The notes: generated from the sequence alone by a model not told the origin. DNA of 35,532 bases from Candidatus Stercoripulliclostridium sp. (GCA_045631675.1 JAZQVF010000068.1:1-35532); one strand, 5' to 3'; numbered from the stretch's first letter, positions 748-33,442 are shown. Program-made: numbers and translations.

Positions 748-1056
748 ATCAAATTCCCCTTTATTTTGTATCTATAGCAACCAAAACGAAAGATTTAATT
801 GCTTTTGACCAAATTAACTCAAATACATTATAGCATACATTAATTAAAAATAAAAGAAAAATTTTTTATGGTTAATCGTAAAAAAATTGTAAACGTTAAA
901 AATGGTCAAATTAAGTTTTAGCGAAGGTTAAGTTCTTAAAGCGAGCGTTATCTTCTTGTATAGTGAAACCATATAAACCCTTCAATCCCTTGCCACCATA
1001 GTTTAGCGCTGTATGATGAAGTAAAACTCTTAACTTGTGTTCCTTTTTCGCCTAAA

Positions 1057-1072
1057 CCACAACATATTGTTC
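1057..1072. promoter_or_regulatory. NrdR-box-like operator upstream of the giant-protein cluster
   Basis: CCACAACATATTGTTC. The 15-mer ACCACAACATATTGT differs by one base from each of the two boxes upstream of nrdD. A degenerate partner (AACTCTTAACTTGTGT, 1025-1040) starts 32 bp upstream. Confidence 0.5.
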
Positions 1073-1131
1073 GCGTGTGGGCAACCGCGCGGTAATATTT
1101 TAGTAAAATTGCGCGCAAATATATACACACT

Positions 1132-1208
1132 TACGCGCGTATATGCTAAAATAGTTCCACTTATGGGGAAAGTTTCCCCTACTTTTATACGCGTGCGTAT
1201 GCTAAAAT
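1132..1208 (+). promoter_or_regulatory. Two tandem extended -10 promoter elements (TATGCTAAAAT) forming an imperfect direct repeat
   Basis: TACGCGCGTATATGCTAAAAT (1132-1152) and TACGCGTGCGTATGCTAAAAT (1188-1208), 56 bp apart. Both match the TRTGnTAnnnT extended -10 consensus, and neither has a good -35. Confidence 0.55.
1165..1179. repeat. Short inverted repeat GGGGAAA-G-TTTCCCC between the two putative promoters
   Basis: 7-bp arms around one central base; could be an operator or a hairpin in the longer 5' UTR. Confidence 0.45.
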
Positions 1209-1233
1209 TAATAAAATTGTCGGAAGAATAAAT

Positions 1234-4200
1234 ATGCTTGCTAAGAAAATAAATCTTAAAAATCTTTCAAAATTAGTTTTCGTCCTATTGATTATGCTTT
1301 CAGTGGGGCTTGCTTTTGCATTCACTTCAACGAGTCTAAACGCTTATGCTATGAATGCAAACGACACTTCTTCGTCAACCCACGTTGACGCTTTGTTGAC
1401 GGATTATCAACCAATTTTAGATACTGGTGCAAGCATTACCTTAAAGTCTCACGCTCTTGAGCAAGCAGATGCTCCTAACCCTGCAATCGCAGAAGGCGAC
1501 GTTGAGCAAACGGCAACCATAAAACTTTCAGGAGATTTGTGGGAGGCAGTCAAGAGTGGAAGAATAACGGCAAGACTACTTGCAAGTGGTACGAATAGTT
1601 ACAAGACTTTGCAAGGCAGTGAAACCACTTGGAAAAATGCAAGCTATTCCGTAAGTGGTGCAATGAGTGGCGAAGGCAAGTTTGATACCACTCTAAACCA
1701 AGAAACCGGCAATATCGTAGACGATAGTTACGAAAATTTAGAATTAGCATCAAGCACCTTGTTAAAAGAAAGTGATGGCGACGAAATTAAAATTACGTAC
1801 AAAGGACAATGGTACGCAACGGAATCTAAAACCGGTCTTGGTACTAACGTTGCCGAAACAGACATTGATTGTCAAATGAATTTTACCTTGGAATTGCAAT
1901 TTGAAGAGGTAAGGGTTTCTCTTTCTTCCACTATTGGTGGAATAGTTAAAGGTGCTAACGGCGAAGAATACGACCTTAGCGCAGGCGCTCAAGAAATCGT
2001 TTTAGGCTTTGAAGACTCTGCATCTTTTAGCGCAGTTGCTAATAGTGGATACTACTTCCTTGGTTGGCAAAGAGCGGGCTCTGCTCTTGATCAAACGACA
2101 ACCGTTTTAGACCTTGGTAAAGCGGTTTCTATTCCAAGCTACGTATCATACGTTTGTGAAGCAAGATTCCAAGTTATAGAAGCCGTTGAAAGCGCAAGTT
2201 ATTCCTACTCAACGGCAGGACAAGGTCCCGTTGTTAGTGCCGCAAGATATAACGGCGTATACTACCTAACTCACCGTTATGAGGGTAAGGCAAACGACGG
2301 TGCCGACGTATTTACTACTTCCGAAGGCTTAGATAAAATTACTGCCGGTCCTATTAGAGCGGGCGATTATACCTATACTTGCGAATTTTTCTATCGTATA
2401 AACAACGGTGACGGCACCATTTCTAAGGGTGAAAAGATTGGTTCGTTTACCAAAGATTTTACCATTGAAAGAAACTCAGCAACCATTGAAAGGGGAAGTG
2501 ATAACGCAAACGTCGTGGAATTTAAACTTGGCGACAACCTTTCAACGTTGGATTTAAGTTACGTTGCAACCAACTCTGCAGATAAGCGTACTCGTCTTTA
2601 CGGCACCGTAGCCCTTTATCTTGAAGAAAATTTAGTTGACGTAAACAAACTTCTTCCCGTAAACGCAAGTGGTGTTAATTATACTTTCCGTTTTACTCCA
2701 AACGACCGAGATAACTATGCAGTAGTTGATACTCCCATCAAAGTTATCGTAAAAGACAAGATGGTTGACAATGGAATCAATCTTCTTGACGGCGTAAGAG
2801 ATTACGAAATTACAAAGAGTATAGTATCTTCCGTTGACGAAAGCGTTCAAAACAACGTTGATACTCTTCCCGAAGGTGCTGAAGTAGTTAAAGTTTCACT
2901 TAGGGCGACTATGCTTGATGAAAGTGGCGAATATTTCTTTATTGGTTGGCGTATCGGCACGTTGCAAAACGGCACGTATGCTTATAGTTACCTTTCAGCA
3001 GGTCAAGTTAATCGCAACGTAGCAGGCGAAATTGAGAGCATAGACGGACTTAATTACGACTATTATATGCCTTATTACGGCGATGAAAGCATCAGCGCAG
3101 AAGATAAGGAAAACTATAAGACGGCATCTTTCCAAGCAGTATATATTAGAGATATTACCACTCAAAGCGGTAACGTTATGAGCCTTTACTATACGGGTGC
3201 TCCATCTAACCGTACTGCAAAGTTTAGTCCAGAGCCTTCAGGCTATCAATTTGGCGCAGGAAATATGGTTTATTACCATGCTACCGACCTTAACACCGGT
3301 GTTTCCGCAATCCCCGTTGAAATTGGTAACCATAAACTTACTTATACCATCAAAAATACTGCTCTTGACGTAGTCGTGGACACTCGCGTAATTGATTACG
3401 TTATTACGAGAGCGGAAATTAGCGTTCAAATAGACAACGTTTCTTCAGTTGGTTTTGGTAATTATAACCAAGAAACCGGTTGGGCGCAAAAGATGTACTA
3501 CAACCTTAGCGTACCCGGGCTTGTTTCAGGTGGCGCATCTAAATATTATTATTCCACTGACAACGGCGTTACTTGGGTGGAAATTAGCGCAAGCATAGCA
3601 AACGGCAGTGGTTGTAGAACTTCTTTTGAAACTCCCGATTTAGTAAACGATACCAAGATAAACTCCTATCTCTTTATGGCAACCAACGAAGAGCACGGCG
3701 AAACTATGGTGTTTGGAGAGACAGGTAACGAAACCACCTATAAAGTAGTTGCAATTACCCAAAACTATACCATAACTAAAATTGATACCGTAGTTCCCAC
3801 CATTGAGAATGTTGTAGAAATTAGCAACCTAAACGGTGCGTGGACTAACGGTAGAATAGAGTACTCGGCACTCGTTTCATTTGGTGGAAGTGGTGCCGTT
3901 ATAGAAGTTGCATACGGCAGTGGTTCCTCTTCTTGGATTACTTTGGAAAGCAATTTAGCCTATAATTCTCAAGACCTTGAAACCATAACTTCCAACTTTG
4001 ATGCAACCTTCAGTCTTTTGAAAGAATTTAGTGGAAAGGTAAGATTTAGAATTCATTCAGGAACGGCCATTTCAACCGTTTATGAAGGTGAATTTGACGT
4101 TAACGTAGACTTAACTACTCCCACTATTCCATCTCCAATTGCAAATAAGAACGTTAACGCATACGGTTGGATAGGCGAAGAAACCACCTTTACTTACGAG

Positions 4201-7200: not shown

Positions 7201-10200
7201 TATAGAATTAAGTCAAGAGTAACGAGTGGATACGAACTAAGCGTTGACGATTACGAAGATTTAAGTTACTCAAACGCTCACGTAACGAAAGATAACGTTG
7301 AACTCGTTATTGGTGGCGCAAACGTTACCATTGACGTTGATATGTATAAAGACGTAGAACTCACCTACTCATTCTTGAAACAATATCTACAAGAGAGCGC
7401 CGTAAGAGAAGTAGAATTTACGGCAAGTGAAGAAGGCTTTAATTCATTCTTTGGCGAAGTAAGCAAAAAGAAAGAGGGCTTTAGAGTGGGCGTAGAGGCA
7501 ACCTACACTAACGTATACGGTCAAACGGTAGATCTTCCAAGTGAAATCGGCACCTATACTTTCAACCTACGTACTCAAGAAGGATATGAAAACTTCTACC
7601 TAATCAATGCAGAAGTTACCCTTACGGTAGTTTACTTCGTAGGAAACGGTACTTCTACTAATCCATACGAGATTAAAGATATAACCGACTTCAACTATAT
7701 TGATAGTTATATGCACTTTGAAGACGGCGATGAAATCGTAGATAGTAGGGCATATCTTGGGGCAAATAGAAGAACGGCATACTTCAAGCAAACGAGCGAT
7801 ATAGTCCTTCCTGCCGCGTTTACTCCCATTGCAGGTAAAGGTGAAGGATATACTAATGAATTTAAGGGAACTTACGATGGTAACGGCTTTGAATTCTTCT
7901 ATCCAAACACCTACGCAGTAAAGGGCGACTTCGGTATCTTCCTAAACGTTAACGGCGCAAGCATTATAAACACAGGAGTAAGAGTAAATATCCGTCTAAA
8001 CGGAGTTTCTAACGGCAACGTAGGATTCCTTGTTGCAAACGCAGAAAACACCGGTATTCGTTCCTCTTATGCAATCGGCAACGTAACCATTTTAGATAGT
8101 GAAGCAATAACCTTCGGTGGTCTTATAGGAAAGGCAAGTTTAAGTTTGATTTCTTTCTCATTCACCGACGTAAGCACCACGATAATTTCTTCAAACGGCT
8201 ATTTCGGTGGTATTGCAGGCCGTCTTAACGGAGCATATACCGCTAACTCGTATAGCGTATCAAGAATAACCCTTACGGGATGTGAAAGATACGATGCACT
8301 TGCCCCTGCAGGCACTAAGTTTGCTTATGCAGGCGCACTCGTAGGATTCATTGAAAATCTTGAATTAGCAGGCGCAGTGCCGGGAGAAAGCAACAAGAGT
8401 TACTATCTTGATAGCAATCTCGGTTACGATAGTTCAATTGAAAGAGGACTCTCACTCGGTAACCGTGATACTTTCGGTAGATACGGCGACCTTAAACATC
8501 AAGGCGAAGATATCAACTTCTTTGCATCGGTTGAGAGCGAGGCTTCACACGCAAGCGTAACCATTCAAACGGGTCTAACCGTACAAGATCTTGTAAGAAT
8601 AAGAATTAATGAAATGAAGGCTCAAGCAAATATGAGTGGTGACGGCACGGAAGAAAGTCCATTCATAGTTGATAGCAGAGAAAAACTACTATACGTTGAA
8701 ATCTTCCCATGGGCAGTATTTAAACAAACTGCAGACGTAATGCTTTTAGACGATGAAACTCTTGCAGAAAGCGTACCATTCGTTGGCGTATACGATGGTA
8801 ACGGTTATTCTATAACCGGTGCTAAAAAGTATACCGATGGATTGGTTGGTGGTGTATTTGGTGTAGTAAGTGGAACTATCAAGAACTTGAAGATAGTAGA
8901 CGTTAACCTTACCTACACTGAAGGTGGCGCTATTGCAGGTGGTGCAGTAGGCGTTTTAGAGGGTGGTTCACTTGAAAACGTAATAGTTTCAGGAACCTTG
9001 AACGTTCTTGCAGAAGATAGTCAAGAAATCGTTTACGTAGGTGGTTTAGTAGGCGTAATGATTGACGGCAACGTAAAAGATTCCGTTGCAATCTTAAGCA
9101 TCAACGCAAGAGGGGAAAAGGTAGTAAGCGGTAACCTTGTTGCTCAAATTCAAGGAAACGCAACTCTAAGCAACGTCGTAAGTATGTCCTCAATTAGCAC
9201 TCACTACCAAAAGAAGGCAGACGTAGGTGCAGTTAGTGGAGCAATTACTTCTGACAAAGTTAAACTAAACGGAGTTTATTATCTTGCAAGCAGTACTTAT
9301 GCAAACGACAAGAGTATCGCTTCTCCCGTAGGTTATAACGCAGGTGCTACTACTGATAGCGTACTCTTCAAGGGATATCAAGACATTCTCAACCTAAACG
9401 TTGCCAACTCTATAGTTGCAGATAAACTTGGTGGACTTTACCCATTTGAAGGAAAGGGAACGAAACAAGATCCATTCAAGATTGATAGTTTTGAAACCTT
9501 GTTATTAGTAAGCAGTTATATGTACGCAAGTTTTGAACTTACCGATAATATCATTATCGGCGACTATAACGACGACGGCAAACTTGATAGTTTAGATGGA
9601 TACGCATACGATTATGCACCTATCGGTAACGGCGCAGTATTTACCGGTTCGTTTGACGGTAACGGCTACTCCATCATTGGACTAAGCGATAGTCTATTTG
9701 AAATAAACGCAGGCTCTGTAACCGACGTTAAACTCAACCTTAACTACAAGGTATATGCAAGTGAAAATGATATTCCCGATAGCGACAAGGTAATTGATGC
9801 ACACGATGCAACTAAGTTCTATACTGCTTCAAAGGTAGCGGGAAAGAATGAAGAAAGAATATTCGGTGCCGTTGCAAAGGTTAATACTGCAACGGGTAGC
9901 ATCATAAGGGTAAGCGTAAGTGGAGAAGTTTACGTTCGTACGTCCGGTAGATCAAAATTCACCTTTGGTGGCGTTGTGGGTATTGATATGGGTGGACAAC
10001 TTGCTGCAAGCCAAGTATCCTTAAATATTTCTGCATTCGCAAACCAAATTGTTGCAGGTGGAATAGTTGGCGAAGTTAGATATTCTGATAAGGTACTAAA
10101 CCAAATGGCAACCAACGACGTAATAACGGCTCGCCCAATAGAACTTGGTGGTGGTTTAGTAGTAGCAGGCACTTACGTAGGTAAGATAGGTGTAGAAAGC

Positions 10201-10290: not shown

Positions 10291-10319
10291 GAAAAGTTAA
10301 CTCATTAGAGAGGTACTAT

Positions 10320-20588: not shown

Positions 20589-20594
20589 CGTAAC

Positions 20595-20624
20595 GCGTAC
20601 GGAGAAGAGTATTTTTCCGTACGC
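20595..20624 (+). promoter_or_regulatory. Intergenic RNA stem-loop without U-tract (stabiliser/processing element or weak terminator)
   Basis: GCGTACGGAGAAG-agta-TTTTTCCGTACGC: 13-bp stem with two G-U pairs, starting 7 nt after the gene B stop and followed by ACCTAACC rather than a T run. Confidence 0.6.
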
Positions 20625-20712
20625 ACCTAACCTATTAATATAACGCGCGCAAGCGAAAAAACTAAAATAAAAAAATCCGAGCGCAAGGCAACTTGCCAAC
20701 ACGGAGGCATAT

Positions 20713-23700: not shown

Positions 23701-26700
23701 AACTTTGATTTCCTCAGTAAGAGTGCATCTGGTGCAACATTTACTGCTGGCGCTTCCAATAAAAACATATCCACAACCAATTCTAAATATCTAAGAATTG
23801 GTGTTTGGATGAATCTATATCATACTGAATCAACGAATGCGTGGATTACCTTTAAACTTAATCCTTTCACTTTAGAGATAATTCCAAGCAAGGATACTAC
23901 GACGCCAACCTTTGGTGGTTACACTTCTAATGGTGGCACTAACTATGCAAATGGTCCGATTACCATTCAAGATAGCAGTGGTCTTGATAGATACACTATA
24001 AACGATGGCTCAAGTAACTGGACGGCAGACTTTGCAAACGTAAGAAGCACTTCCATCCCCACAACTTTACAAGCGTTAGGTACAATTAACGGCAAGTCCT
24101 ATACCTTGACGGCATACGACATTTGGGGCAACTCAAGTACTTTAACCTTTACGTACTTTAGGCCGGTAATTAACGTCACGGGCGTTACGGACGGCATAGA
24201 AGGGGACTACTCTGGTGGTGGTATCGGGTTAAGCAGTGATGCAAGCACCTTTAGTGGTGATACGTATACCTATGCCTATCAAGCAAAGACTTATGGCAAC
24301 ACTATTTACGTTCATGCTAAACCTAAAGACGGCTATTACTTTGCAGGTATTTTAGTAGACGATCTCTTCGTTTCTGCACCCAACACAAACTTAGAAAGCG
24401 CACTAAATTATAGTAGAATGGATGAAAATAACTTAGAATATACCTTTAATTTCTCCATTTCTAATATGAATGAAATACCCGTAAACGGAGTAATAGGGGT
24501 TAGAGTTTACTTCAAGAGTATTGAAACGAGTGGAGCAGGCTCTTACGTATACAACAAACAAGAAAAGGAAGTCGTAGTTAACAATCTTACTGATATTTCA
24601 GGGGTAGGCGTGGTAACTTCAAGTTCAACTTATAACGGCTCTTCTTCTAAACCAATTAACGTAGACACCTATTCAGTTGTTTCAAGCGTGCTTATCAACG
24701 GACACGTAGTTGGTAAAAAGTCAAACGAACAACTTGTAATTACACCTGCAAGCGTTACTGCATCTTTCTCTGCAACGAATAGAGATTACAACGGTTCTCA
24801 AGATGCAAAAAGCATTACTTCCTATGCACTAAATGGTGTTTATGGTGGTGACGTCGTTGAACTTTCATATAGTGCAACTTTTGATAGTAAAAATGCAGGA
24901 ATAGACAAGGCTATTTCAACAACCAACTTGACTTTAACCGGTACAAATGCTGGAAATTATACCTTAAACGGCGTTAATAGTGGTACTACGACGGGTACTA
25001 TTAATGCAAAAGCAGTTACCGTAACCTTCACTGAGACAGGTATTACCAAGGTTTACGATGGTACTACTGCTATTACTCTACAAAATCAACCTTTAGTAGA
25101 TGGTATGGTAGGCTCTGAAAGTTTGGTATATGATCTTAGCGCAAACTATAACGATAAAAACGTTGGCTCTAACAAGGCGATTACCCTTGTAAGCACTACC
25201 CCTTCTTACGAGAATGGCGCAATTGCAAGCAACTATTCAATAACCTTAGTAGGAGCAAACGATCGTTTAGGTAACGTTACTCAAAAAGATATTATCATCA
25301 ACTATAATTACTCCAATAGCAAAGCATACGATGCAACCACTTCTGCACAAGTAACGTTTGCATCATTTGAAGGTAACGTTGCAGGGGACGTTCTTGACAC
25401 TACCTTTACTGCACACTACAATTCTAAAGACGTTGTTAGTGCAAACACTATTACCATTAACGTTGTGCTTACTGGCGATGATGCAGGTAACTATGCTTAC
25501 CAAGATACGTACGTAGAAAACGGTACCATTACCAAAAAAGATATTACCTTTACTGCTGAAAATAAGGAACAAGTCTACGGCGATAGTGCAAAAGAACTTA
25601 CCTATTTGGCAAGTGATTTTGCAGTTGGAGAAACGGTAAACGACTTTACCTTATCTATTACAAGAGCAAGTGGAAACGACGTTGGTACATACGTAATTAG
25701 TATTACCGCACAAAATGCTAACTACAACGTAACGGCTATTAGTGCAAACTACGTAATTGTTGTAAGAGAAATAGGTGCAACCTTTGCAAGTGCATCATCT
25801 AAGGTATACGATGGCACGAATGACGTAACGGGTCTAATTTCCTATACTCTTACCAACACCGTATACGGAGATGAAGAAAAACTTGAAATTAGTGGTATTT
25901 CTGCAAGCGTTAACGACAAAAACGTGGAAGAAAACAAGGCGATTACTATTGCAAACACCTTTACTTTGATAAATAAGCAAGGCAATGACGTAGCAAAGAA
26001 TTACCTTCTCAAGTTAGAAAACACCAATTATACTGCACTTAAAACGTCAATTACGCCCAAAGACGTAACGGTAAATTACGATTTAACTACTTCTAAAGTA
26101 TACGATGCAACGAATACTGCTACGGTTTCACTAAATGCAGTATCCCCATTTAGTGGATTGCTAATCGGAGATGACTTAGAGGCAAGCGTTAGTGCAGTTT
26201 ACAACGTTAAAGACGTAACGGCAGAAAGTATACTTGTAACCATAACTCTTACGGGTGGTACCGATGCTCACAACTATAACCTTTCTAATCCTTCAGTTAC
26301 CGTAGTTGACGGTGTTGCTATTACTAAGGCAACGCTTACCATAACTACCACTTCTACTAAGGGCTTTAATTACGTTTATGGCGATGACGTTAACGCTGAC
26401 CTTGGGGTAAGTTACGTAGGCATTATGGGTAGTGACGTAATTAGTGGCGCAACGGTAAGTATGACTGAAAACGGAAAGGGATACGTTCCTGCAACGATAG
26501 GAACAATGGTAACTCCCACCTTTGAAGAAGAACTTCAAAACTACGAAGTAAATTTGGTAGGCAAAACCGTAGTCGTTGATAGAAAGGGACTTACCGTTAC
26601 TTACGTTGGTGAAACCATCGTTTATGGCGCTACTCCCGTAGGAACTATTTCATACAACGGATTCGTTGAAAATGAAAATGCAAGCGACCTTGTAAAACAA

Positions 26701-29700
26701 CCAAGAGTAATTTTTGATTCCTTAATCCCCACCACCGAACCAAAGTTTATAAAAGTTGGTGGATATGCAGGAATTATCCCACAAGGTGCAGAGTCTGCAA
26801 ACTATAACTTCACTTACGCTGAAGGAACTCTTACCGTAACTAAGAAAGCAATTACTGCAGTTTACACAAACAGCATCGTTTACGGCGACGTTGTTGGAGT
26901 AAGTTTTGACAAGATTGCCGTTGACGGCTTAGTAGCAGGGGATAGTACAAACTCTCTTACCATTGCATCTGCAGACCTTTCATCCTACGTAATCGTAGGC
27001 GAACACGTTTTAGATGCAAGTGATATAGCAATTACTGCATCCAACTACACCGTAAGCGTAAGTGGTACTTTAACCATAACTAAGGCAACGCTAACTCTAA
27101 GCGTAGCAGTAGACGGCAACGTAACTTACGGCGACGATGCAAACGCAAAACTTTCAGTAGAAGTTAGTGGATATAAGAATGGGGACGACCAAGCAGTATT
27201 TGGTGGCACGCTCCCCACAGTTTCCACCCTTACCACCAACGCAAGTGGTTTGGTAGATGCAGGTACCTACACCGTAACTACCGAGTATGCAGGTGCAGAA
27301 CTTCAAAACTACACCGTAGTACACTCTACTAAGAGCATTACCATAGCAAAAGCATCTCTAAACGTAAAATATATTGGAAAGAGCATCGTTTACGATGGAA
27401 AATCTTCCTATTTACCATCTACCTATATAACGAAAGCAGACGTTGAAGTTACCGGATTTGTAGGTGGCGAAAATATCGCGTTTGAAATTTCTCACTACGG
27501 CAATAACAATCCTTTAACTTCAGTTGGTAGCGTTGAGTCCGTATTAGTATTCCTTATGGATGAAACCACTACCTTTAAGAACTATACCATCGTTCGTGAA
27601 GGTGGAAAATTTGAAGTTACACCTTGTCCCGTAACCTTCACTATTTTAGACCAAGGTTCGGTATATGGCGAAGTGGTAGAGTTAAAGCAAGGTGTGGAAT
27701 ATTATACTTCTAACGTATCTCACGCAGGTGTACCTACCCTTAAGTTTGAAGGCGAAACTCCCGTAAACCAAGGCGAATACGCAATTACGGGTACGTATAC
27801 CAATGCTAACTATAATGCAACTTTCGTAAACGGCACCTATACTATTTCTGCTCGTGAAGTTACTATTAACTTGCTTGACCAATCAAGCGACTACGATGCA
27901 AACGAGCCTATCTTAGACCAAACCAAGTGGGAATATGCAGAAGGCTCATTGAAGATTTTGGCTGGAGACTCTACAAACTTCAACGTTCAAAAGGCATTAG
28001 GCGTAAACGCAGGCTCTTACGAGATTAGTGGTAGTTATAGTGACGCTAACTATTCTTTAACTATCAACACTGCAACCTATACCATCAACAAGATTGCACT
28101 CACTGCAACCATTGAATTTAAAGTAGAAAACAAGACGGTAAAGAAGAGTGGACTTCTAACGTTGGTTGGTAGTGACTTTACTATAACTTATAGTGGCTTT
28201 GTCGGTGGCGAAAACAGTTCCGTATTTACGAGACACGTTGAAGTTGACCTTGCAACTCTTAGAACGTACGATCTTGGCACTTACGCTATCCCATACGTTG
28301 AAGGTGAATCAACTAACTATAACTTCACTTACGTAAGTGGTCAAATCATAATAGTTGCAGACCTAATAGTAATCACCCCCGTAGGTTTCACTTTTGAAAA
28401 CGCAACCTATGATTACGATGGCGTTGAAAAGACTCTCCAATTCGTGTGGCCGGATAAACCCGAGCACGTAACCATCACTCACGTTATCACTAAAGGTGGA
28501 GAAGTTGTTTACGAAATGAAGAATGCAGGCGAATACGTAGTTACTGCATATCTCTCTACTTCCGATCCTAATAGTATGATTGCAGAAGACTTTGAAGAAG
28601 TTGCAAGAACCCTTACCATCAACAAGGTAGCAGTTAGCGCAACCTTCTCTGCAATAGACCTAAGCAAGCCCTATGACGGAAAGGTAGAAATTGCACTTTC
28701 TAACCAACCTATAGTAGCAGGTATGATAGGAGAGGAAACCCTAAAGTTCAACCTAAACGCTAAGTTTAGCGACAAGAACGTTGGTGTGGATAAGGCTATC
28801 ACACTCGTTGACTTAGCACCTATCTATGAAAACGGTGCGCTTGAAGAAAACTACGTCGTTAACGTTTTAGGTAACGATACTTTAACTGCAAGCATCACTC
28901 CTATTGCACTAAGCGTAAACTTTACACCCGTAACAACCAAGGTATACGATCGCACTCGCTCACAAGAAGTTGCGTTTGACGGTTTCGTAGGTCTTGTTGA
29001 CGGCGACGACGTAACTGCAGTGCTAAGCGCAGAGTACGATGCAGAAGACGTTGAAAGCGCAAGTGAAATTACCGTTTCAATCGCTATAACCGGTGTAGAC
29101 GTATTGAACTACGTTCTCGCTTCTTCAGAAGAAAAAGTTGCAGGTAGCATTACTCCTAAGAAGGTAACGGCAACGTTTAAGACCGTAGCGTTAAGCAAGG
29201 AATACGACGGCAACGTTGAAATTGCTTTACATAATCAGCCTGAGGTTGTAGGACTACTTGGTGGCGATGAAATTTCCTTTGCTCTTGATGCAACCTTTGC
29301 TGACAAGAACGTGGGAATCAACAAGACGATAACCCTAAAAGACCTAACTCCTTCAGCACTTGGTGCAACCAAACTAAGCAACTACGAAGTAGAAGTACTT
29401 GGTACCGACACTTTAACTGCATCAATTAGCACTAAGGCAATAACCATTACCCTAAAAGACCAACACCACGTTTACGATGGCACTAATCCTACGGTTGCTC
29501 AAGGTAGTGATTGGTACGACGTAACTGCAGGCTCAGTGATTGCAGGTGATGAACTTGACGTAAGAATTACCAAGACCGGTACTTCACCTAACGCAGGCAA
29601 TTACCCACTTAGCGCAGTAGCATATAATGCAAATTACAACGTACACGTAGTTGGCGCTAAGTTCTATATTGATAGAGCGGAAACCATCGTTTACTTTGAT

Positions 29701-31848
29701 AAGATGGTTAAGGAAGTGGAATATACCGGCTCCGATATACTCGTAACTCCTGCAAACTTTGAAGTATACACCAACCGTGAACAATCAACGGCTAACATCG
29801 TATATCCTTCAACCGTACTAAGGGAAGTAGGGGAATACACTCTTACCTTCGTTGTAAACGAACAAGTACCAAACAACTACGAGCCTACGACGGCAGAAGT
29901 TAAGGTTTACGTTGTAAGAGCAACCCCAACCATTGACTTTACGCATATCCTTGATAAGGAATGGAGATATAACGGTACGGAACAACACGTAATCGGTGCA
30001 ACTCATACTAACACCGATGCAGGCGTTGAAGTAAGTTATAGTGGTAACACCTTCCTTGACGTACCTGAAAATAATACTCTTACCTTCACCGTAACCCTTT
30101 CTGAAACTGCAAACTACAAGTCAGTTTCCGCAACTTGCACCATAACGGTACTAAAAGCAAACTACGACGTATCAGCAGTTCGTTTTGACAACGGCGATTA
30201 CGACTACTCAGGCGAATATAGATATCTTGAAGTAGTGGGTCTTCCTGCTGGAATAGGAGTAACCTACACCGTAGGTAGCATCACTCAAGATACTCCAATT
30301 ATGATTAAAGACGCAGGTATCTACACCGTAAGAGCAAGTTACACCTACGATGAAAGAAACTACAATAAGCCCGTAATCATGGAAACTGCACGTCTTACCA
30401 TTAACCGCATCAACATTACCGTTGAGGTTGAAGGACAATCCGGTTACTACGGCGAAGAGCCTGTCTTTAACCCTGCCGGCATAAAGGTTATTGCAGGTAG
30501 TTTCATTGAAGGCGATACCTTCTCATTAGACTTAAAACTTGAGCCTAAGGATAGTTACCCCATCGGACATTATCAACTCGTTGCAGACACCACTTCAAGT
30601 GGTAACTACAATATCGTTGTTGCAAAGGGTAGTTACGACGTACTACCTCGCCCCGTAACCTTCCGTATTGAAGACAAAGAAAGTCAATACGGCGATGAAG
30701 ACGTTCCACTTTCCTACGTTCTTGATGAAAGTTCACCATATTCTATCTTAGAAGGCGACCTATTTACTGCATCTCTCGTAAGAGAAGAAGGTAAACTACC
30801 AAAAGAGGGTGGTTATGCTATTATGGGTGCAATTACAAACCCCAACTATAAGGCAACAGTTATTCCCGGAAAGTACAACGTTGTTCCAAGGGCTATTTCT
30901 ATTATCGTATACGATCAAGAAGGCACTAACGCAAGTCACCTAAGCAAGAAAGAATATAGAGTAGTTCGCACTAAGGGACAAGGCAGTGCAATTCTCCGTG
31001 GCGATGATCTCAAGATTCAAGTAGTTGCAAAAGACGAAATAGGCGACGTACCCGGTGCATATGCTCTTACTGCAAGTTATAACGAAGAACTTGCACATCT
31101 TTACGAAGTAAAGATAGTTGAGGCAAAGTTCACCCTAAGAATAGAAACGAAAATTACCGTTACCAACGAGATATTCTCCAAACTCTACGACGGTGTTCCT
31201 TACTCCTTTGACATCATCGTATCAAGTGGCGCAACTCCACAAGTAACCGTTGACGGTATCTTTATGGACAACGCTTTCACTGAAGTTGGTATTTACGAAA
31301 TAACCATCATAGCACCCGTTATAGGCGACTATGCAGAGCCTGATCCTTACCGTTTCACCTTTGAAATTCGTCCTATTGAACTCGTTGCAGAGCAAGGTGG
31401 AGTAATCTTTACCATTTCCAAAGAAGGTGGATTTGGAGCAGATGAAACCTTAGACGTTCATCAAACGCAAGAACTCGTTCTTTCTGGCGACAACTATACG
31501 AGCGAAATAGACTCTGCTTACTCTATTTACGTTGTAAAGGGAGAAGAAAGAATTCCTTTGAACGAGTATGCTGAGAATGAAAAGGTAACCTTAAAGGTAA
31601 AACTTAGCGAAGAATTGCAACAAATTGGCGTATCCACTTGGTTTATGGATAACGACGGTGGTGTATTACACACTGCGCTAGAAACCGATGAAAACGGTTT
31701 TGTAGAAGTAGAAATTGAAAACGGTATGCACGTACTTTTCGTTGCAGAAAGACAAGAGGCAACGCCCATTCTTATCGTTGGAAGTTCAATGGGACTTGCA
31801 TTCATCATTCTCTTCTTATTCTACCTATTCAGGAGAAAGGCAATTTAA
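20713..31848 (+). CDS. Giant membrane-anchored surface protein C (3711 aa): signal peptide, four tandem tip domains, InlB-B-like repeat, YDG and MBG repeat stalk, juxtamembrane domain, C-terminal TM
   Basis: RBS GGAGG 20703-20707. Signal peptide ending AEA. KVYDGT...DKNVG...NY (YDG-type) and xxYG...GxYxI...NY (MBG-type) repeats. C-terminus ILIVGSSMGLAFIILFLFYLF-RRKAI. Confidence 0.85.
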   Translation: MNKARLLKPTKSTLFIVMLMALTLVCGIIFSSLSLTKGTIAEAMSLPTGNTNVAAGTFGSNSTVQRRGQSAISTTVGQVSDFTIVDNVSWLYSQGIISSSPSMSTSANSWSAGSAQNGSPILYHIGFLHTYKITEAQYRGILNGQIAVSSEIKSGNLTMTTLDLRLWNYVGIGTASSDANALTFDGFNEVKYIINPNVSGNSDGNKWTSKDFTGARTISRQNLTNTSQSVSGGNYYYRIGFFIEIWPDRQETLSLSNVSMSGELYENKNLMTTPGTISSYPMEMESYRGKEYPATTNNNFLQSGFETISSTTYSTTLTDNFSTADDTLASSSQAGHFAQSNLWERVMARESSTSYGTTGTDSIVFFYTFALTDEVYNGLKNGSLELSASGSYSAGGTSAPDFYAWMYVGLGKDTSAGDVSYLKEFNEIVGAVASNGETGGATKVLGEAFSESNTYKPSSFSGFKFTSLSSTQNSHSYSDSSSGTKYLRIGMYARVYGATDSTFTFKVHNMSLRIAEPPIAGNQMSTPGTVFESGSYSGTGGGGQTYYGWHSQRDVMYQNKEQNSIAEISSTGTYTRTNYNDFTLVSDTDGYSGNTDSEFLMMSSSYPGWSRNTSTTKYMDNVIFMVTYKLSDSIYRGLLNGTYYITTEGGASAGVVGGSGDVDTWMYIGLGNAASDNDAKKYLGFKETSSIIGAKSDQAGGTSYRSISINNIDTRSPYVSGLKTGAIQTLNESYSSGTKYIRIAMFAEVWSGDDTSSRTTKIDSVSLRININEATSISKSSSSSNVSKQSSMTQPSDWNVYYYDDDSNSGIYSDQTQMVTISSSGSGSSFQLNSNNYVDGAITQTNSGVRFSGSSGFGTSSGVDANSYLNFTYFANRGSSGTFADGLANSIAIRYESGNSNLNQTFYIGFFYTIKLDENVFAGLLSGKIKLNAQMQGTNTGENLNTWFNGNQYVYFGLGTANDDADAMGGTSFRELVGAISEGKEYLDQSSSFSISNFDFLSKSASGATFTAGASNKNISTTNSKYLRIGVWMNLYHTESTNAWITFKLNPFTLEIIPSKDTTTPTFGGYTSNGGTNYANGPITIQDSSGLDRYTINDGSSNWTADFANVRSTSIPTTLQALGTINGKSYTLTAYDIWGNSSTLTFTYFRPVINVTGVTDGIEGDYSGGGIGLSSDASTFSGDTYTYAYQAKTYGNTIYVHAKPKDGYYFAGILVDDLFVSAPNTNLESALNYSRMDENNLEYTFNFSISNMNEIPVNGVIGVRVYFKSIETSGAGSYVYNKQEKEVVVNNLTDISGVGVVTSSSTYNGSSSKPINVDTYSVVSSVLINGHVVGKKSNEQLVITPASVTASFSATNRDYNGSQDAKSITSYALNGVYGGDVVELSYSATFDSKNAGIDKAISTTNLTLTGTNAGNYTLNGVNSGTTTGTINAKAVTVTFTETGITKVYDGTTAITLQNQPLVDGMVGSESLVYDLSANYNDKNVGSNKAITLVSTTPSYENGAIASNYSITLVGANDRLGNVTQKDIIINYNYSNSKAYDATTSAQVTFASFEGNVAGDVLDTTFTAHYNSKDVVSANTITINVVLTGDDAGNYAYQDTYVENGTITKKDITFTAENKEQVYGDSAKELTYLASDFAVGETVNDFTLSITRASGNDVGTYVISITAQNANYNVTAISANYVIVVREIGATFASASSKVYDGTNDVTGLISYTLTNTVYGDEEKLEISGISASVNDKNVEENKAITIANTFTLINKQGNDVAKNYLLKLENTNYTALKTSITPKDVTVNYDLTTSKVYDATNTATVSLNAVSPFSGLLIGDDLEASVSAVYNVKDVTAESILVTITLTGGTDAHNYNLSNPSVTVVDGVAITKATLTITTTSTKGFNYVYGDDVNADLGVSYVGIMGSDVISGATVSMTENGKGYVPATIGTMVTPTFEEELQNYEVNLVGKTVVVDRKGLTVTYVGETIVYGATPVGTISYNGFVENENASDLVKQPRVIFDSLIPTTEPKFIKVGGYAGIIPQGAESANYNFTYAEGTLTVTKKAITAVYTNSIVYGDVVGVSFDKIAVDGLVAGDSTNSLTIASADLSSYVIVGEHVLDASDIAITASNYTVSVSGTLTITKATLTLSVAVDGNVTYGDDANAKLSVEVSGYKNGDDQAVFGGTLPTVSTLTTNASGLVDAGTYTVTTEYAGAELQNYTVVHSTKSITIAKASLNVKYIGKSIVYDGKSSYLPSTYITKADVEVTGFVGGENIAFEISHYGNNNPLTSVGSVESVLVFLMDETTTFKNYTIVREGGKFEVTPCPVTFTILDQGSVYGEVVELKQGVEYYTSNVSHAGVPTLKFEGETPVNQGEYAITGTYTNANYNATFVNGTYTISAREVTINLLDQSSDYDANEPILDQTKWEYAEGSLKILAGDSTNFNVQKALGVNAGSYEISGSYSDANYSLTINTATYTINKIALTATIEFKVENKTVKKSGLLTLVGSDFTITYSGFVGGENSSVFTRHVEVDLATLRTYDLGTYAIPYVEGESTNYNFTYVSGQIIIVADLIVITPVGFTFENATYDYDGVEKTLQFVWPDKPEHVTITHVITKGGEVVYEMKNAGEYVVTAYLSTSDPNSMIAEDFEEVARTLTINKVAVSATFSAIDLSKPYDGKVEIALSNQPIVAGMIGEETLKFNLNAKFSDKNVGVDKAITLVDLAPIYENGALEENYVVNVLGNDTLTASITPIALSVNFTPVTTKVYDRTRSQEVAFDGFVGLVDGDDVTAVLSAEYDAEDVESASEITVSIAITGVDVLNYVLASSEEKVAGSITPKKVTATFKTVALSKEYDGNVEIALHNQPEVVGLLGGDEISFALDATFADKNVGINKTITLKDLTPSALGATKLSNYEVEVLGTDTLTASISTKAITITLKDQHHVYDGTNPTVAQGSDWYDVTAGSVIAGDELDVRITKTGTSPNAGNYPLSAVAYNANYNVHVVGAKFYIDRAETIVYFDKMVKEVEYTGSDILVTPANFEVYTNREQSTANIVYPSTVLREVGEYTLTFVVNEQVPNNYEPTTAEVKVYVVRATPTIDFTHILDKEWRYNGTEQHVIGATHTNTDAGVEVSYSGNTFLDVPENNTLTFTVTLSETANYKSVSATCTITVLKANYDVSAVRFDNGDYDYSGEYRYLEVVGLPAGIGVTYTVGSITQDTPIMIKDAGIYTVRASYTYDERNYNKPVIMETARLTINRINITVEVEGQSGYYGEEPVFNPAGIKVIAGSFIEGDTFSLDLKLEPKDSYPIGHYQLVADTTSSGNYNIVVAKGSYDVLPRPVTFRIEDKESQYGDEDVPLSYVLDESSPYSILEGDLFTASLVREEGKLPKEGGYAIMGAITNPNYKATVIPGKYNVVPRAISIIVYDQEGTNASHLSKKEYRVVRTKGQGSAILRGDDLKIQVVAKDEIGDVPGAYALTASYNEELAHLYEVKIVEAKFTLRIETKITVTNEIFSKLYDGVPYSFDIIVSSGATPQVTVDGIFMDNAFTEVGIYEITIIAPVIGDYAEPDPYRFTFEIRPIELVAEQGGVIFTISKEGGFGADETLDVHQTQELVLSGDNYTSEIDSAYSIYVVKGEERIPLNEYAENEKVTLKVKLSEELQQIGVSTWFMDNDGGVLHTALETDENGFVEVEIENGMHVLFVAERQEATPILIVGSSMGLAFIILFLFYLFRRKAI
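20839..23886 (+). repeat. Four diverged ~230-270 aa protein repeats at the N-terminus of protein C
   Basis: Units at ~20839-21516, 21517-22263, 22276-23034 and 23080-23886. They share FxxTxx(L/I)xxxx(Y/F)xG(L/I)xxG, Y(V/I/F)G(L/I)G...FxE and YxRI(G/A). Confidence 0.8.
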
Positions 31849-33408: not shown

Positions 33409-33442
33409 ACTATTGCACGATTAATTTTTTTAGGAGGTCGCT

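What the first reader, a model, noticed from the sequence alone, without database searches (positions are those of the whole stretch)
1234..31848. Operon of three paralogous giant surface proteins (10,151 aa in total): candidate multi-subunit surface apparatus
Seen: three co-oriented genes with gaps of 29 and 124 bp. All three open with the same module order: signal peptide, tip domain(s), B-repeat (AVANSGYYFLGW / AKPNYGYYFAGW / AKPKDGYYFAGI, ending ARFQVI / ACFRKI / VYFKSI), then an MBG-like unit (PIRAGDY / PTEAGTY / PINVDTY; QGPxV in A and B). The stalks then use different repeat families. B and C have a C-terminal TM plus basic tail and A has no anchor. No sortase motif, SLH, catalytic motif or dedicated transporter is visible. 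Inference: a common ancestor diverged into a co-expressed trio, with unanchored A possibly docking on B or C to build a long fibrillar adhesion or capture structure.
Basis: partly seen in the sequence, partly recalled or inferred. Interest (0 to 1): 0.8.

Follow-up and report, generated by a model that had tools for sequence, protein, structure and literature searches.

The report
Conserved pair of giant surface adhesins
Three very long secreted proteins lie side by side in a small gut Clostridia genome and look like long surface adhesion fibres; only the first two form a conserved gene pair, and nothing yet shows they assemble into one machine.

Summary
Three co-oriented intact ORFs of 3018, 3422 and 3711 aa (A, B, C) are separated by 29 and 124 nt. 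Each starts with a signal sequence, jelly-roll head(s), a B-repeat and an MBG-like unit. B and C end in a TM helix plus basic tail; A has no anchor.

The "paralogous trio operon / multi-subunit apparatus" reading is only partly supported.
- **A and B:** their heads are homologous (hhalign E 1.8e-17). A→B adjacency is kept in 22 genomes of 5 genera, with a tiny gap.
- **After B:** a strong hairpin follows the stop codon (a canonical terminator in one relative).
- **C:** it is a YDG/MBG fibrillar adhesin of a multi-copy family. Its position varies: after a TIM-barrel gene, absent, or on the opposite strand.
- **A's conserved C-terminus:** three weakly GLUG/M26_N-like modules, acidic, with no known wall-binding domain.
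- **Docking of A on B:** untested. The one complex prediction gave no verdict.

The genome has peptidoglycan genes but no detectable sortase, and puts 15.8% of its DNA into frames of at least 1000 codons.

The most likely reading is fast-evolving fibrillar adhesins. The closest analogue in print is the Giant1-5 cluster of Apilactobacillus kunkeei. This is a new variant of a known kind, of moderate interest.

The parts
1040..1233 (+). Conserved leader/promoter region upstream of A. It includes an extended -10-like TGCTAAAAT (promoter scan hit at 1124-1152), GC-rich palindromes and a GGGGAAAGTTTCCCC hairpin.
   Evidence: Promoter scan. An alignment of 4 species shows long invariant blocks in the last ~190 nt. 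No Rfam family matches.
1234..10290 (+). Gene A, 3018 aa. A secreted giant protein without a membrane or wall anchor.
   Evidence: ORF and translation. Collinear orthologues of 2955-3120 aa. No C-terminal TM in 8 of 8 orthologues.
1234..1350 (+). A signal peptide (aa 1-39). It has a basic n-region, a hydrophobic core and an AYA site.
   Evidence: Read from the sequence. AxA-type sites were seen in the orthologues, read by eye. No SignalP was available.
1384..1911 (+). A head: a jelly-roll beta-sandwich (aa ~51-226).
   Evidence: AF2 model with pLDDT 88.4. VIA-align best Z 7.3 (rmsd 4.3, 143 aligned, Bd1399), with generic jelly-roll/CBM/lectin matches below it. The phmmer search finds only 7 proteins, all ~3020-aa A orthologues.
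1912..2493 (+). A B-repeat (aa ~227-315) and MBG-like Ig unit (aa ~316-420).
   Evidence: Flg_new_2 is sub-threshold (E 0.006-0.008; 3 of 8 orthologues, best 1e-4). In the model, the domains match pilin/CnaB-type and Ig-like folds at Z ~6.
2494..7641 (+). A stalk. Ig-like repeats with recurring D-x-[TVA]-x-P-[TVI] boundaries at aa 851, 959, 1155, 1387, 1626 and 1834.
   Evidence: Internal repeats. Big_13, Reelin_subrepeat-B and CHB_HEX_C give only sub-threshold hits. Motif scan.
7642..10287 (+). A C-terminal triple module (starting at aa 2137, 2469 and 2740). It is weakly GLUG/Peptidase_M26_N-like. It is the best-conserved part of A and is acidic.
   Evidence: Internal repeats. Conservation of 42-54%. 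ESM Atlas score 0.95 to Glug/M26_N clusters. Pfam hits in orthologues only (M26_N in 3 of 8, Glug in 2 of 8, best ~5e-4) and none in the window's copy. pI 4.3-4.9.
10291..10319 (+). A-B intergenic spacer of 29 nt, with a GAGAGG ribosome-binding site and no room for a terminator.
   Evidence: Sequence.
10320..20588 (+). Gene B, 3422 aa. A giant protein anchored by a C-terminal TM helix.
   Evidence: ORF and translation. Orthologues of 2481-3603 aa lie directly downstream of A.
10389..10466 (+). B N-terminal hydrophobic segment (aa ~24-49) after a long polar n-region. It is either a signal peptide (AVGA|D) or an uncleaved signal-anchor.
   Evidence: Hydropathy. A GA-type site is present in 5 of 8 orthologue sets plus G260 and absent in 3, read by eye. 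This is unresolved.
10617..11954 (+). B head: a tip domain (aa ~100-330), a B-repeat (~340-415) and an MBG-like unit (~420-545). It is homologous and collinear to A's head.
   Evidence: hhalign probability 98.9%, E 1.8e-17. Flg_new_2 E 0.0011, sub-threshold.
11955..20495 (+). B stalk, made of divergent MBG/YDG-like units. The membrane-proximal ~420 aa are the best conserved part (47-62%).
   Evidence: Internal repeats. Weak hhalign matches to the MBG_2/YDG profiles (E 1e-4 to 7e-3). MBG_3 E 0.0017. Atlas look-alikes are MBG_2 clusters at 0.92-0.94, with low recognition. Conservation. The same units occur in other giant ORFs of the genome.
20496..20585 (+). B C-terminal TM helix plus basic tail (…WLIYVGGGIGVLMLLSTVFFLVRKQKKID).
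   Evidence: NCBIfam gives only sub-threshold matches: GG_III-CTERM E 0.0012, and the hydrophobic/charged part of LPXTG_anchor E 0.022. There is no LPxTG.
20595..20624 (+). 12-bp hairpin starting 9 nt after B's stop codon, with no U-tract. A candidate terminator, attenuator or 3' stabiliser.
   Evidence: RNA fold -33.4 kcal/mol, z -4.77, 0 of 200 shuffles as good. Hairpins sit at the same place in G005, G004 and G003, and a canonical terminator in G015; none in G001. The simple terminator scan found none here.
20713..31848 (+). Gene C, 3711 aa. A TM-anchored YDG/MBG fibrillar-adhesin-type protein.
   Evidence: ORF and translation. Pfam YDG 215 bits and MBG_2 118 bits, both above the 25-bit cut-offs.
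20845..23952 (+). Four tandem copies of the C-type head domain (20845-21582, 21586-22329, 22366-23097, 23197-23952).
   Evidence: Alignment. HMM iterations. AF2 model with pLDDT 73 is a jelly-roll; VIA-align Z 8.2 (rmsd 3.4, 142 aligned, Cry11Aa domain III), Z 8.1 (rmsd 3.3, 129 aligned, mannanase CBM), then many CBMs. Only 12 cluster representatives among 1.84 billion match at E<=1e-3.
24280..31122 (+). C B-repeat (aa ~1190-1270), then the stalk: 11 YDG-type and 11 MBG_2-type units (aa 1344-3470).
   Evidence: Own HMMs seeded from the Pfam stretches. Pfam. hhalign of the B-repeat/MBG part to A and B.
31759..31845 (+). C C-terminal TM helix plus basic tail (…LAFIILFLFYLFRRKAI).
   Evidence: NCBIfam finds nothing significant.

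Best explanation
A and B are a conserved, co-transcribed pair of fibrillar-adhesin-type giant surface proteins. C is a third, independently placed adhesin of a multi-copy YDG/MBG family that happens to lie next door in this species.

All three are exported by Sec through N-terminal signal sequences. B and C stay tethered to the membrane by a C-terminal stop-transfer helix with a cytoplasmic basic tail. This tail is the hydrophobic and charged half of a Gram-positive sorting signal without the LPXTG, in a walled organism where no sortase was found. Their stalks of tandem Ig-like units should carry the N-terminal jelly-roll (CBM/lectin-like) heads far from the cell. The likely length is of the order of 100 nm; this is an inference from domain count. 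The heads would bind glycans or other surface ligands in the animal gut.

The heads evolve fast and the bases slowly, as expected for a ligand-facing tip on a constrained anchor end. A has the same kind of head as B. It ends in three conserved, acidic, weakly GLUG-like modules and has no anchor, so it is either released or held non-covalently by an unknown partner.

Shown here: the ORFs, the domain order, A-B head homology, the anchors, synteny, the conservation gradient and the predicted folds.
Inferred: surface location, adhesion, ligand class, co-transcription and the fate of A.
For: - **ORFs and architecture:**
- **Stalk domains:** YDG and MBG_2 in C score above the Pfam cut-offs. YDG and MBG are used as fibrillar-adhesin stalk domains in PMC9210967 (passages read).
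- **Heads:** A's head model (pLDDT 88.4) is a jelly-roll followed by two Ig-like domains. The top Foldseek hits are adhesin binding regions and lectins (SraP 4m00_A E 3.5e-5, YwfG, MAM), but with TM scores of only 0.1-0.2. C's head model gives jelly-roll and many CBM matches (Z 8.2, rmsd 3.4, 142 aligned; Z 8.1, rmsd 3.3, 129 aligned).
- **A-B head homology:** E 1.8e-17.
- **Anchors:** conserved in 8 of 8 orthologue sets.
- **Cell envelope:** no Sortase (PF04203) hit in the 95.5%-complete genome, while PBP transpeptidase and FtsW/RodA are present.
- **Conservation gradient:** B runs from 18-28% identity at the N-terminus to 47-62% at the C-terminus. A runs from 31% to 51-54%.
- **A-B coupling:** a 29-nt gap with an RBS. 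Of 33 family genomes that hold strong matches to both, 22 have them on one contig and strand, ~10-11 kb apart (5 genera). The other 11 have them on different contigs, and none has them on one contig elsewhere.
- **Break after B:** a hairpin or terminator follows B in 5 of 6 loci folded.
- **C is variable:** different position, absent, or on the opposite strand.
- **C-type copies elsewhere:** C-type heads occur in other giant ORFs of the same genome (C10, C135), and two copies occur in G010.
- **Genome context:** 44 frames of at least 1000 codons make up 15.8% of the DNA.
- **Precedent:** consecutive giant surface-protein genes in a small Bacillota genome are described for A. kunkeei Giant1-5 (PMC12863079; abstract and passages read).
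Against: - No binding, localisation or expression data exist.
- No RNA run was usable.
- All structural matches for the heads are middling (Z 5-8) and generic, so 'glycan-binding' is only a fold-class inference.
- A and B have no Pfam or NCBIfam hit above any cut-off.
- A has no recognisable retention module, and its C-terminus is acidic. This differs from the basic SH3b-like ends proposed to hold the A. kunkeei giants on the wall.
- The tight conservation of A→B adjacency, together with the fact that the best-conserved parts are A's C-terminus and B's membrane-proximal base, would also fit a physical A-B partnership.
- B's N-terminal hydrophobic segment lacks a clear cleavage site in 3 of 8 orthologues. 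B could therefore be tethered at both ends, which would not fit a simple 'head-out' fibre.
Confidence: 0.6

Rival explanations
1. Two-component fibre. A is secreted and then docks non-covalently, through its conserved C-terminal triple module, onto the conserved membrane-proximal base (or another part) of the anchored B. The pair would form one composite surface structure. This follows the logic of a free scaffoldin docking on an anchoring scaffoldin, but uses unrelated modules.
For: - A lacks any anchor in 8 of 8 orthologues, while B always has one.
- A→B adjacency, with gaps from a slight overlap to ~100 nt, is kept in 22 genomes of 5 genera.
- Strong A and strong B matches co-occur. Of 39 genomes with B at E<=1e-30, 33 have A at E<=1e-100. 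Of 42 genomes without such a B, only 1 has A. These genomes are kin, so the counts are not independent.
- The best-conserved parts are A's C-terminus and B's C-terminal ~420 aa.
Against: - No known docking pair (cohesin/dockerin, SLH, CWB2, SH3b, LysM) is detected.
- A-like unanchored proteins with the same triple module in genera g15 and g14 are not followed by a B-like gene, and those genomes give only weak B-unit matches.
- Conservation of the base of a surface protein is also expected without any partner.
- Genus- and family-level synteny can simply be inherited.
Confidence: 0.2
2. A, B and C are three diverged paralogues that are co-expressed from one operon and assemble into a single multi-subunit apparatus.
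For: - The genes are co-oriented with short gaps in this window.
- All three share the order head, B-repeat, MBG-like unit.
- The same A-B-C order occurs in G015.
Against: - C's position is not conserved. The order is A-B-TIM-C in G005 and G004, there is no C in G003, and the C-like gene is convergent in G001.
- A hairpin or terminator follows B.
- C-type proteins are multi-copy and occur elsewhere in the genomes.
- Beyond the head modules, no homology is found between the three.
Confidence: 0.05
3. The proteins are not adhesins. They could serve another envelope role, such as a spacer or protective coat, a matrix component, or attack on other cells as proposed for some giant genes. A could be a released enzyme or matrix protein whose beta-helix-like C-terminal modules act on polysaccharide.
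For: - The genome spends 15.8% of its DNA on frames of at least 1000 codons, which hints at a lifestyle-wide role.
- A is probably released.
- GLUG/M26_N-like modules accompany enzymes in other proteins. This comes from the family descriptions; their function is not known to me.
- Giant genes are linked to predation in 10.1101/2023.11.21.568195 (search listing and start of abstract only).
Against: - No catalytic domain or HExxH motif was found.
- The architecture of head, repeat stalk and anchor, with YDG/MBG units, is the defining pattern of fibrillar adhesins (PMC9210967).
- The heads have CBM/lectin-like folds.
Confidence: 0.1

Closest known systems
Fibrillar adhesins of Gram-positive bacteria with MBG/YDG stalks (Monzon et al., PMC9210967; 10.1101/2020.12.07.414375)
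   Same: They share a signal peptide, an N-terminal binding-type domain (jelly-roll-like heads next to MBG stalks are described there), a long stalk of tandem Ig-like repeats, a C-terminal anchor and fast evolution. C carries YDG and MBG_2 above the Pfam cut-offs.
   Different: The anchor here is a plain TM helix plus basic tail, with no LPXTG and no sortase found in the genome. The heads of A/B and of C match no Pfam family and are confined to this lineage. A has no anchor at all.
Giant1-5 gene cluster of Apilactobacillus kunkeei (PMC12863079)
   Same: Consecutive genes for 3000-8000-aa extracellular proteins in a ~1.5 Mb Bacillota genome. [quoted passage not shown] Genes are added to the cluster stepwise, and neighbouring giants co-evolve (abstract and passages).
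   Different: Those giants have beta-solenoid heads, DUF5776/SH3b-like basic C-termini and no TM segment. Here the heads are jelly-rolls, B and C have TM anchors, and A's C-terminus is acidic and weakly GLUG-like. No sequence relationship was seen.
Cellulosomal scaffoldin gene clusters (a free scaffoldin that docks on wall-anchored scaffoldins encoded next to it). Recalled from general knowledge, not from a call.
   Same: Adjacent genes encode a large unanchored modular protein and large anchored ones. This is the working model behind the docking idea.
   Different: No cohesin, dockerin or SLH domain is detected in A, B or C at Pfam E<=0.01. The resemblance is one of logic only.
Serine-rich repeat adhesin SraP and L-type-lectin surface proteins (YwfG)
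   Same: They are the top Foldseek matches of A's head region (4m00_A E 3.5e-5; 7yl4_B 4.1e-4). They also have a beta-sandwich binding module followed by small beta domains.
   Different: TM scores are only 0.11-0.14 and identity ~10%. There are no serine-rich repeats and no accessory Sec genes in the window.
N-terminal GLUG / Peptidase_M26_N region of IgA1-type metalloproteases
   Same: A's C-terminal modules look like these by language-model features (0.95). Weak Pfam hits occur in 2-3 of 8 orthologues.
   Different: There is no hit in the window's own copy at E<=1. There is no M26 catalytic domain and no HExxH. The modules sit at the C-terminus of a non-enzymatic giant protein.

Membership tests
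Fibrillar adhesin (operational definition: exported, adhesive domain, repeat stalk, surface anchor) | N-terminal secretion signal | tested here: met
   A basic n-region, a hydrophobic core and (for A and C) AxA-type sites are seen in the translations and the hydropathy scan. This was judged by eye, with no SignalP. B may instead be a signal-anchor.
Fibrillar adhesin (operational definition: exported, adhesive domain, repeat stalk, surface anchor) | Stalk of tandemly repeated domains | tested here: met
   C has 11 YDG-type and 11 MBG_2-type units, above the Pfam cut-offs. A and B have internal repeats, but these match families only below threshold.
Fibrillar adhesin (operational definition: exported, adhesive domain, repeat stalk, surface anchor) | Adhesive (ligand-binding) domain | tested here: inconclusive
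   The heads are predicted jelly-rolls with generic CBM/lectin-like matches. A: Z 7.3, rmsd 4.3, 143 aligned. C: Z 8.2, rmsd 3.4, 142 aligned. No known adhesive Pfam family matches, and binding was not measured.
Fibrillar adhesin (operational definition: exported, adhesive domain, repeat stalk, surface anchor) | Cell-surface anchor | tested here: met
   Met for B and C through a C-terminal TM helix plus basic tail. Not met for A, which has no TM and no wall-binding domain.
Sortase-anchored LPXTG proteins | LPXTG motif before the C-terminal hydrophobic segment, and a sortase in the genome | tested here: not met
   There is no [LIV]Px[TSA][GNAS] motif near any C-terminus. TIGR01167 matches only its hydrophobic/charged part, below the cut-off (15.4 against 15.9 bits). 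PF04203 gives 0 hits in the 95.5%-complete genome, although it hits 3 of the control genomes.
MBG / YDG stalk-domain proteins (Pfam PF18676, PF18657) | Score above the Pfam gathering cut-off | tested here: met
   For C: YDG 215 bits and MBG_2 118.4 bits, against cut-offs of 25. For A and B this is not met. MBG_3 scores 18.8 bits in B, and there is only weak profile similarity.
InlB B-repeat (Pfam Flg_new_2, PF18998) | Score above the Pfam gathering cut-off (23.6 bits) | tested here: inconclusive
   B scores 19.3 bits (E 0.0011) and A 16.6-16.9 bits. 3 of 8 A orthologues match at E<=0.01, the best at 1e-4. The GYYFxGW motif is present in A, B and C.
GLUG / Peptidase_M26_N region (PF07581, PF05342) | Pfam match to A's C-terminal modules | tested here: inconclusive
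   The window's copy gives no hit at E<=1. Among orthologues, M26_N matches 3 of 8 and Glug 2 of 8, with best E ~5e-4. Atlas feature score 0.95. This region was not modelled on its own.
Cellulosome scaffoldin/anchoring system | Cohesin and dockerin (and SLH) modules | tested here: not met
   No such Pfam family matches A, B or C at E<=0.01, nor segments of A at E<=1.
A. kunkeei Giant protein family | C-terminal DUF5776 / SH3b-like basic domains, beta-solenoid head, no TM | tested here: not met
   There is no DUF5776 hit. The heads are jelly-rolls. B and C have TM segments. A's C-terminus is acidic.

The most novel reading that the evidence does not exclude
A and B are the two subunits of a previously undescribed, sortase-independent surface fibre of small-genome gut Clostridia. 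The anchored B provides a conserved membrane-proximal base. The exported A is held on that base by its conserved, acidic triple GLUG-like C-terminal module, which would be a new docking pair unrelated to cohesin-dockerin. The result would be a composite structure that displays two different fast-evolving jelly-roll heads. C-type YDG/MBG adhesins would be exchangeable additions beside it.
Probability: 0.15. Interest if true: 0.7.

Novelty: new variant of a known kind. Interest (0 to 1): 0.42.

Why it matters
Uncultured gut Clostridia with genomes of about 1.7 Mb are known almost only from MAGs, and what they do at their surface is unknown. This lineage puts about a sixth of its DNA into giant exported proteins. 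It keeps one unanchored/anchored pair side by side across at least five genera, so these proteins are likely central to how the cells attach to particles, mucus or partner cells.

The heads are lineage-restricted jelly-roll domains without a family name. They are good candidates for new glycan-binding modules. The conserved A-B pair gives a concrete, testable case of whether Gram-positive cells without sortase build composite fibres by non-covalent docking.

If the pair turns out to be just two neighbouring adhesins, the finding is an ordinary, though extreme, example of fibrillar-adhesin expansion.

Tried and rejected
- **Complex prediction** of A's C-terminal 319 aa (alignment A5) with B's last 443 extracellular aa (alignment A6): score 0.00, no verdict, controls not run. 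This is neither for nor against binding. Other parts of B and C were not tried because the cap is one job.
- **Expression:** no RNA holder was listed. Two 'RNA?' metagenomic runs (one study) hold small shares of the stretch. Laid on 9000-22000 they gave 21 contigs, the listed ones 151-331 nt at 95-100% likeness. None bridges the A-B or B-C junction (one covers 20624-20848 only). Nothing can be said about transcripts.
- **The search for related loci** with the A C-terminal alignment found no confirmed relative in genome contigs. The second scan, with NrdD, served only to place the organism.
- **PDB sequence searches** with the A head and A C-terminal profiles found nothing meaningful (best E 0.37).
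- **Pfam/NCBIfam** on A and B gave only sub-threshold hits. A weak DUF3237 hit (E 0.034) and a BNR hit (E 0.084) were dismissed as noise.
- **C head against the A and B heads** by profile stays marginal. I do not claim sequence homology, only the same fold class and a shared strand-helix motif (…YTYKLT-E-x-Y-x-G-L-x-N-G…).
- **VIA-align lists for the two heads:** no family stands out, and nothing reaches well above Z 8. No specific CBM or lectin family is assigned.
- **Rfam:** no family in the window or in the leader of A. A c-di-GMP riboswitch was considered and not found.
- **Wall binding of A by charge** (as proposed for the A. kunkeei giants) was rejected, because A's C-terminus is acidic in all 8 orthologues.
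- **Lipoprotein anchoring of C** (…LTLVCG…) was rejected, because the residues before the Cys do not fit a lipobox (read; the rule is recalled).
- **BLASTP without composition correction** gave long 20%-identity alignments between B and C (E 1.7e-17). I treat these as compositional or repeat-class similarity, because they vanish with correction.
- **Literature:** searches for the genus name (2 papers, both taxonomic; the name was not found in the held part of PMC8035907) and for 'GLUG motif' (2 unrelated papers) found no description of these proteins. Supplements of the cited papers could not be seen.


Full report
**1. What is in the window**

One search finds three co-oriented ORFs:
- A: 1234-10290, 3018 aa.
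- B: 10320-20588, 3422 aa.
- C: 20713-31848, 3711 aa.

They sum to 10,151 aa and are separated by 29 and 124 nt. The neighbours are as follows:
- Upstream, on the other strand, lies an esterase.
- Downstream lies a xylose-isomerase-like TIM-barrel gene whose ATG overlaps C's stop codon by one base.
- After that come a radical-SAM NrdG-type activase and NrdD.

No transporter, sortase, glycosyltransferase or accessory-Sec gene lies in the window.

The window is contig C68 of a 1.70-Mb, 225-contig MAG that is 95.5% complete. The nearest named record, with NrdD 97% identical (L023), is titled Candidatus Stercoripulliclostridium sp. That genus belongs to Bacillota, Clostridia.

**2.

All quoted motifs are present.

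*Heads of A and B.* A profile of 8 A orthologues against 7 B orthologues aligns A 94-413 with B 157-543. The probability is 98.9% and E is 1.8e-17, over 301 columns. The two therefore share a homologous, collinear head: tip, then B-repeat, then MBG-like unit.

*C against A and B.* C shares the B-repeat plus MBG-like part with A (E 3.5e-8) and with B (E 2.2e-9).

*C's own heads.* C has four tandem copies of a ~240-aa domain. This domain is only marginally similar in sequence to the A and B tips (E 9e-4 over 27 columns; E 4.8e-5 over 55 columns).

*Models.*
- The model of A 40-420 (pLDDT 88.4) shows a jelly-roll beta-sandwich followed by two Ig-like domains.
- The model of a C head (pLDDT 73) is also a jelly-roll. 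In both models a single helix follows a long strand, exactly at the shared YTYKL-x-E-x-Y-x-G-L-x-N-G-type motif.
- Structural neighbours are generic. For A the best is Z 7.3 (rmsd 4.3, 143 aligned, Bd1399). For C the best are Z 8.2 (rmsd 3.4, 142 aligned, Cry11Aa domain III) and Z 8.1 (rmsd 3.3, 129 aligned, a mannanase CBM), followed by many CBMs.
- Several entries appear in both lists: Bd1399, BcsB and Cry11Aa.
- Foldseek ranks adhesin binding regions and lectins first for A (SraP, MAM, YwfG), but with low TM scores.

*Anchors.* B and C end in a hydrophobic helix plus a basic tail, and A does not. This holds in all 8 orthologue sets. There is no LPxTG or HExxH.

**3. The stalks**

- **C** has 11 YDG-type and 11 MBG_2-type units, and Pfam scores them far above cut-off.
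- **A** has Ig-like repeats with only sub-threshold Big_13-type hits. It then has three ~290-aa modules starting at aa 2137, 2469 and 2740.
  - These three modules look GLUG/Peptidase_M26_N-like to a language model (0.95).
  - They match those Pfam families only weakly, and only in some orthologues (3 of 8 and 2 of 8). The window's own copy gives none at E<=1.
- **B**'s stalk gives only weak profile matches to the MBG_2/YDG profiles (E about 1e-4). Its Atlas look-alikes are MBG_2 clusters at 0.92-0.94, with low recognition.

So A's stalk is distinct. B's and C's stalks may be distant members of one class.

**4. Context in the genome and lineage**

- The MAG has 44 open frames of at least 1000 codons, which is 15.8% of its bases. 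Twenty-three of them are at least 1800 codons, and many are cut by contig ends.
- B-type stalk units and C-type heads recur in other giant ORFs of the same genome.
- Peptidoglycan genes are present (PBP transpeptidase, FtsW/RodA), but no sortase was found. A TM helix plus basic tail is therefore the expected way to hold a surface protein here.
- The head families are narrow. The C-head profile hits only 12 cluster representatives among 1.84 billion. The A tip finds only 7 proteins, all ~3020-aa A orthologues.

**5. Synteny**

Gene order in the genus:

| Genome | Order |
|---|---|
| G000, G015 | esterase, A, B, C, TIM, NrdG, NrdD |
| G005, G004 | esterase, A, B, TIM, C, NrdG, NrdD |
| G003 | A, B, TIM, then unrelated genes (no C) |
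| G001 | A, B, TIM on one strand; a C-like gene convergent on the other |
| G014, G008 | A, B, then the contig ends |

Across the family I searched 81 genomes of 17 genera with profiles of A's C-terminal region and B's C-terminal region.
- 33 genomes hold strong matches to both.
- In 22 of those 33, the matches lie on one contig and strand, ~10-11 kb apart. These are 15 genomes of genus g1, 4 of g159, 1 of g160, 1 of g18 and 1 of g153.
- In the other 11, the matches lie on different contigs. I saw no case of both on one contig but apart.
- One pair from another genus was read directly: G260, with A of 2955 aa and no anchor, immediately followed by B of 2481 aa with a TM tail.
- In genera g15 and g14, unanchored A-like proteins with the triple module are not followed by a B-like gene. 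Those genomes give only weak matches to B units.

These genomes are relatives, so the counts are not independent events.

**6. Transcription signals**

- **Upstream of A:** the last ~190 nt are conserved in four species and contain an extended -10-like TGCTAAAAT.
- **A-B gap:** 29 nt with a GAGAGG RBS.
- **After B:** nine nt past the stop codon lies a 12-bp hairpin (-33.4 kcal/mol, z -4.77, 0 of 200 shuffles as good) without a U-tract. The simple terminator scan does not call it.
- **Same position in relatives**: unrelated sequences form strong hairpins in G005 (z -4.0), G004 (z -4.4) and G003 (z -4.4). G015 has a canonical terminator with a U-run (z -5.2). G001 has none.

Together with C's variable position, this points to an A-B unit, with C (or the TIM-barrel gene) expressed at least partly on its own. 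No usable RNA data were found.

**7. Conservation pattern**

Identity to the orthologues rises from head to base:

| Protein | N-terminal part | C-terminal part |
|---|---|---|
| A | ~31% in the first 300 aa | 51-54% in aa 2701-2900 |
| B | 18-28% in the first 300 aa | 47-62% in the last 420 aa |
| C | 1-21% in the first 400 aa (heads) | 38-47% in the last 500 aa |

This is what a ligand-facing, diversifying tip on a constrained base would give. For A it also marks the unanchored C-terminal triple module as the part under most constraint.

**8. How it most likely works**

- **Shown:** the architecture, the homologies, the anchors, the synteny and the conservation gradient.
- **Inferred:** all three proteins are Sec-exported. 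B and C are held by C-terminal stop-transfer helices. Their Ig-like stalks carry CBM/lectin-like jelly-roll heads away from the cell to bind glycans or other surfaces in the animal gut. A is co-expressed with B, carries a paralogous head, and is either released or held non-covalently.
- **Docking:** the idea that A docks on B is attractive because of the conserved pairing and because the two conserved ends coincide. It has no direct support. The single complex prediction gave no verdict. A's C-terminus is acidic, and no known docking or wall-binding module is found.
- **Open point:** B's N-terminal hydrophobic segment lacks an obvious cleavage site in 3 of 8 orthologues (read by eye). Its topology is therefore not settled.

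**9. Comparison with what is known**

- The pattern of head, repeat stalk and anchor, and the YDG/MBG units, place C among fibrillar adhesins as defined in PMC9210967 (passages read) and in 10.1101/2020.12.07.414375 (listing and start of abstract only). B belongs there by architecture.
- The nearest described situation is the Giant1-5 cluster of Apilactobacillus kunkeei. That cluster has five consecutive genes for 3000-8000-aa extracellular proteins in a 1.5-Mb genome. Its proteins have signal peptides, N-terminal binding domains, imperfect repeats and conserved C-termini, genes were added stepwise, and neighbours co-evolve (PMC12863079; abstract and passages).
- The differences here are jelly-roll rather than beta-solenoid heads, TM anchors in B and C, and an acidic GLUG-like end in A rather than basic SH3b-like domains.
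- The scaffoldin/anchoring-scaffoldin arrangement of cellulosomes is a useful analogy for the docking idea. That comparison is recalled, not from a call. Its defining modules are absent.
- I found no paper that describes these proteins or this genus beyond taxonomy. Supplements could not be read.

**10. Verdict**

The feature is best described in two parts:
- a conserved bicistronic pair of giant fibrillar-adhesin-type proteins, one unanchored and one TM-anchored, with homologous lineage-specific jelly-roll heads;
- a neighbouring, independently placed YDG/MBG adhesin.

It is a new variant of a known kind. The main open and testable question is what holds A, if anything does.

Noticed in passing
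whole genome G000 (e.g. C10:2-17902 minus strand, C167, C156, C100): 44 open frames of at least 1000 codons take up 15.8% of a 1.70-Mb genome. The longest (5967 codons) is cut by both contig ends. Relatives show open frames of 13,956 (G326:C2), 11,286 (G352:C85) and ~9,000 codons (G011:C28, G007:C149).
   Followed up: partly
window 1040-1233: The ~190 nt before A's start codon are strongly conserved in four species. They include a 17-nt invariant GTAATATTTTAGTAAAA, CGCGCG-type palindromes, an extended -10-like TGCTAAAAT and a hairpin whose sequence differs between the four species. No Rfam family matches. This may be a regulated promoter or leader.
   Followed up: partly
window 31848-32609: A 253-aa xylose-isomerase-like TIM-barrel gene (AP_endonuc_2; weak IolE-like hit at 44 bits against a cut-off of 290) overlaps C's stop codon by one base. 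In relatives it always follows B or C directly. Its link to the giant genes, if any, is unknown.
   Followed up: partly
window 20640-20712: The B-C spacer contains GCGCGC…AAAAAACTAAAAT, which resembles the CGCGCG…TGCTAAAAT arrangement upstream of A. It could be a separate promoter for C.
   Followed up: no
window 33379-33422: A near-consensus promoter-like site (TTGACA-18-TACAAT, 11 of 12) overlaps a 12-bp hairpin with a T-run, just upstream of nrdD. It may be a regulatory site for the anaerobic ribonucleotide reductase.
   Followed up: no
window 10560-10600 (B aa ~84-94): B carries a run of six glycines (…VGSGGGGGGVNL…) between its N-terminal hydrophobic segment and the head domain. It is probably a flexible linker.
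   Followed up: no
L019:~11190-11290 (G008:C9): The B orthologue of G008 has a run of N (an assembly gap) inside its N-terminal region. Its head cannot be judged, and my ORF call there is truncated.
   Followed up: yes
window 9000-22000: Two coded metagenomic runs of one study, labelled bovine gut, hold 21 contigs that are 95-100% like the window (the listed ones 151-331 nt). A close relative of this organism therefore occurs there. The named nearest record and the genus description come from other animal guts.
   Followed up: partly
G207:C2:34982-37243 and G343:C5:48345-50351: In another genus of the family, the A-type C-terminal modules sit inside open frames of ~7,450-7,480 codons. The module is therefore reused in even larger proteins.
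   Followed up: no
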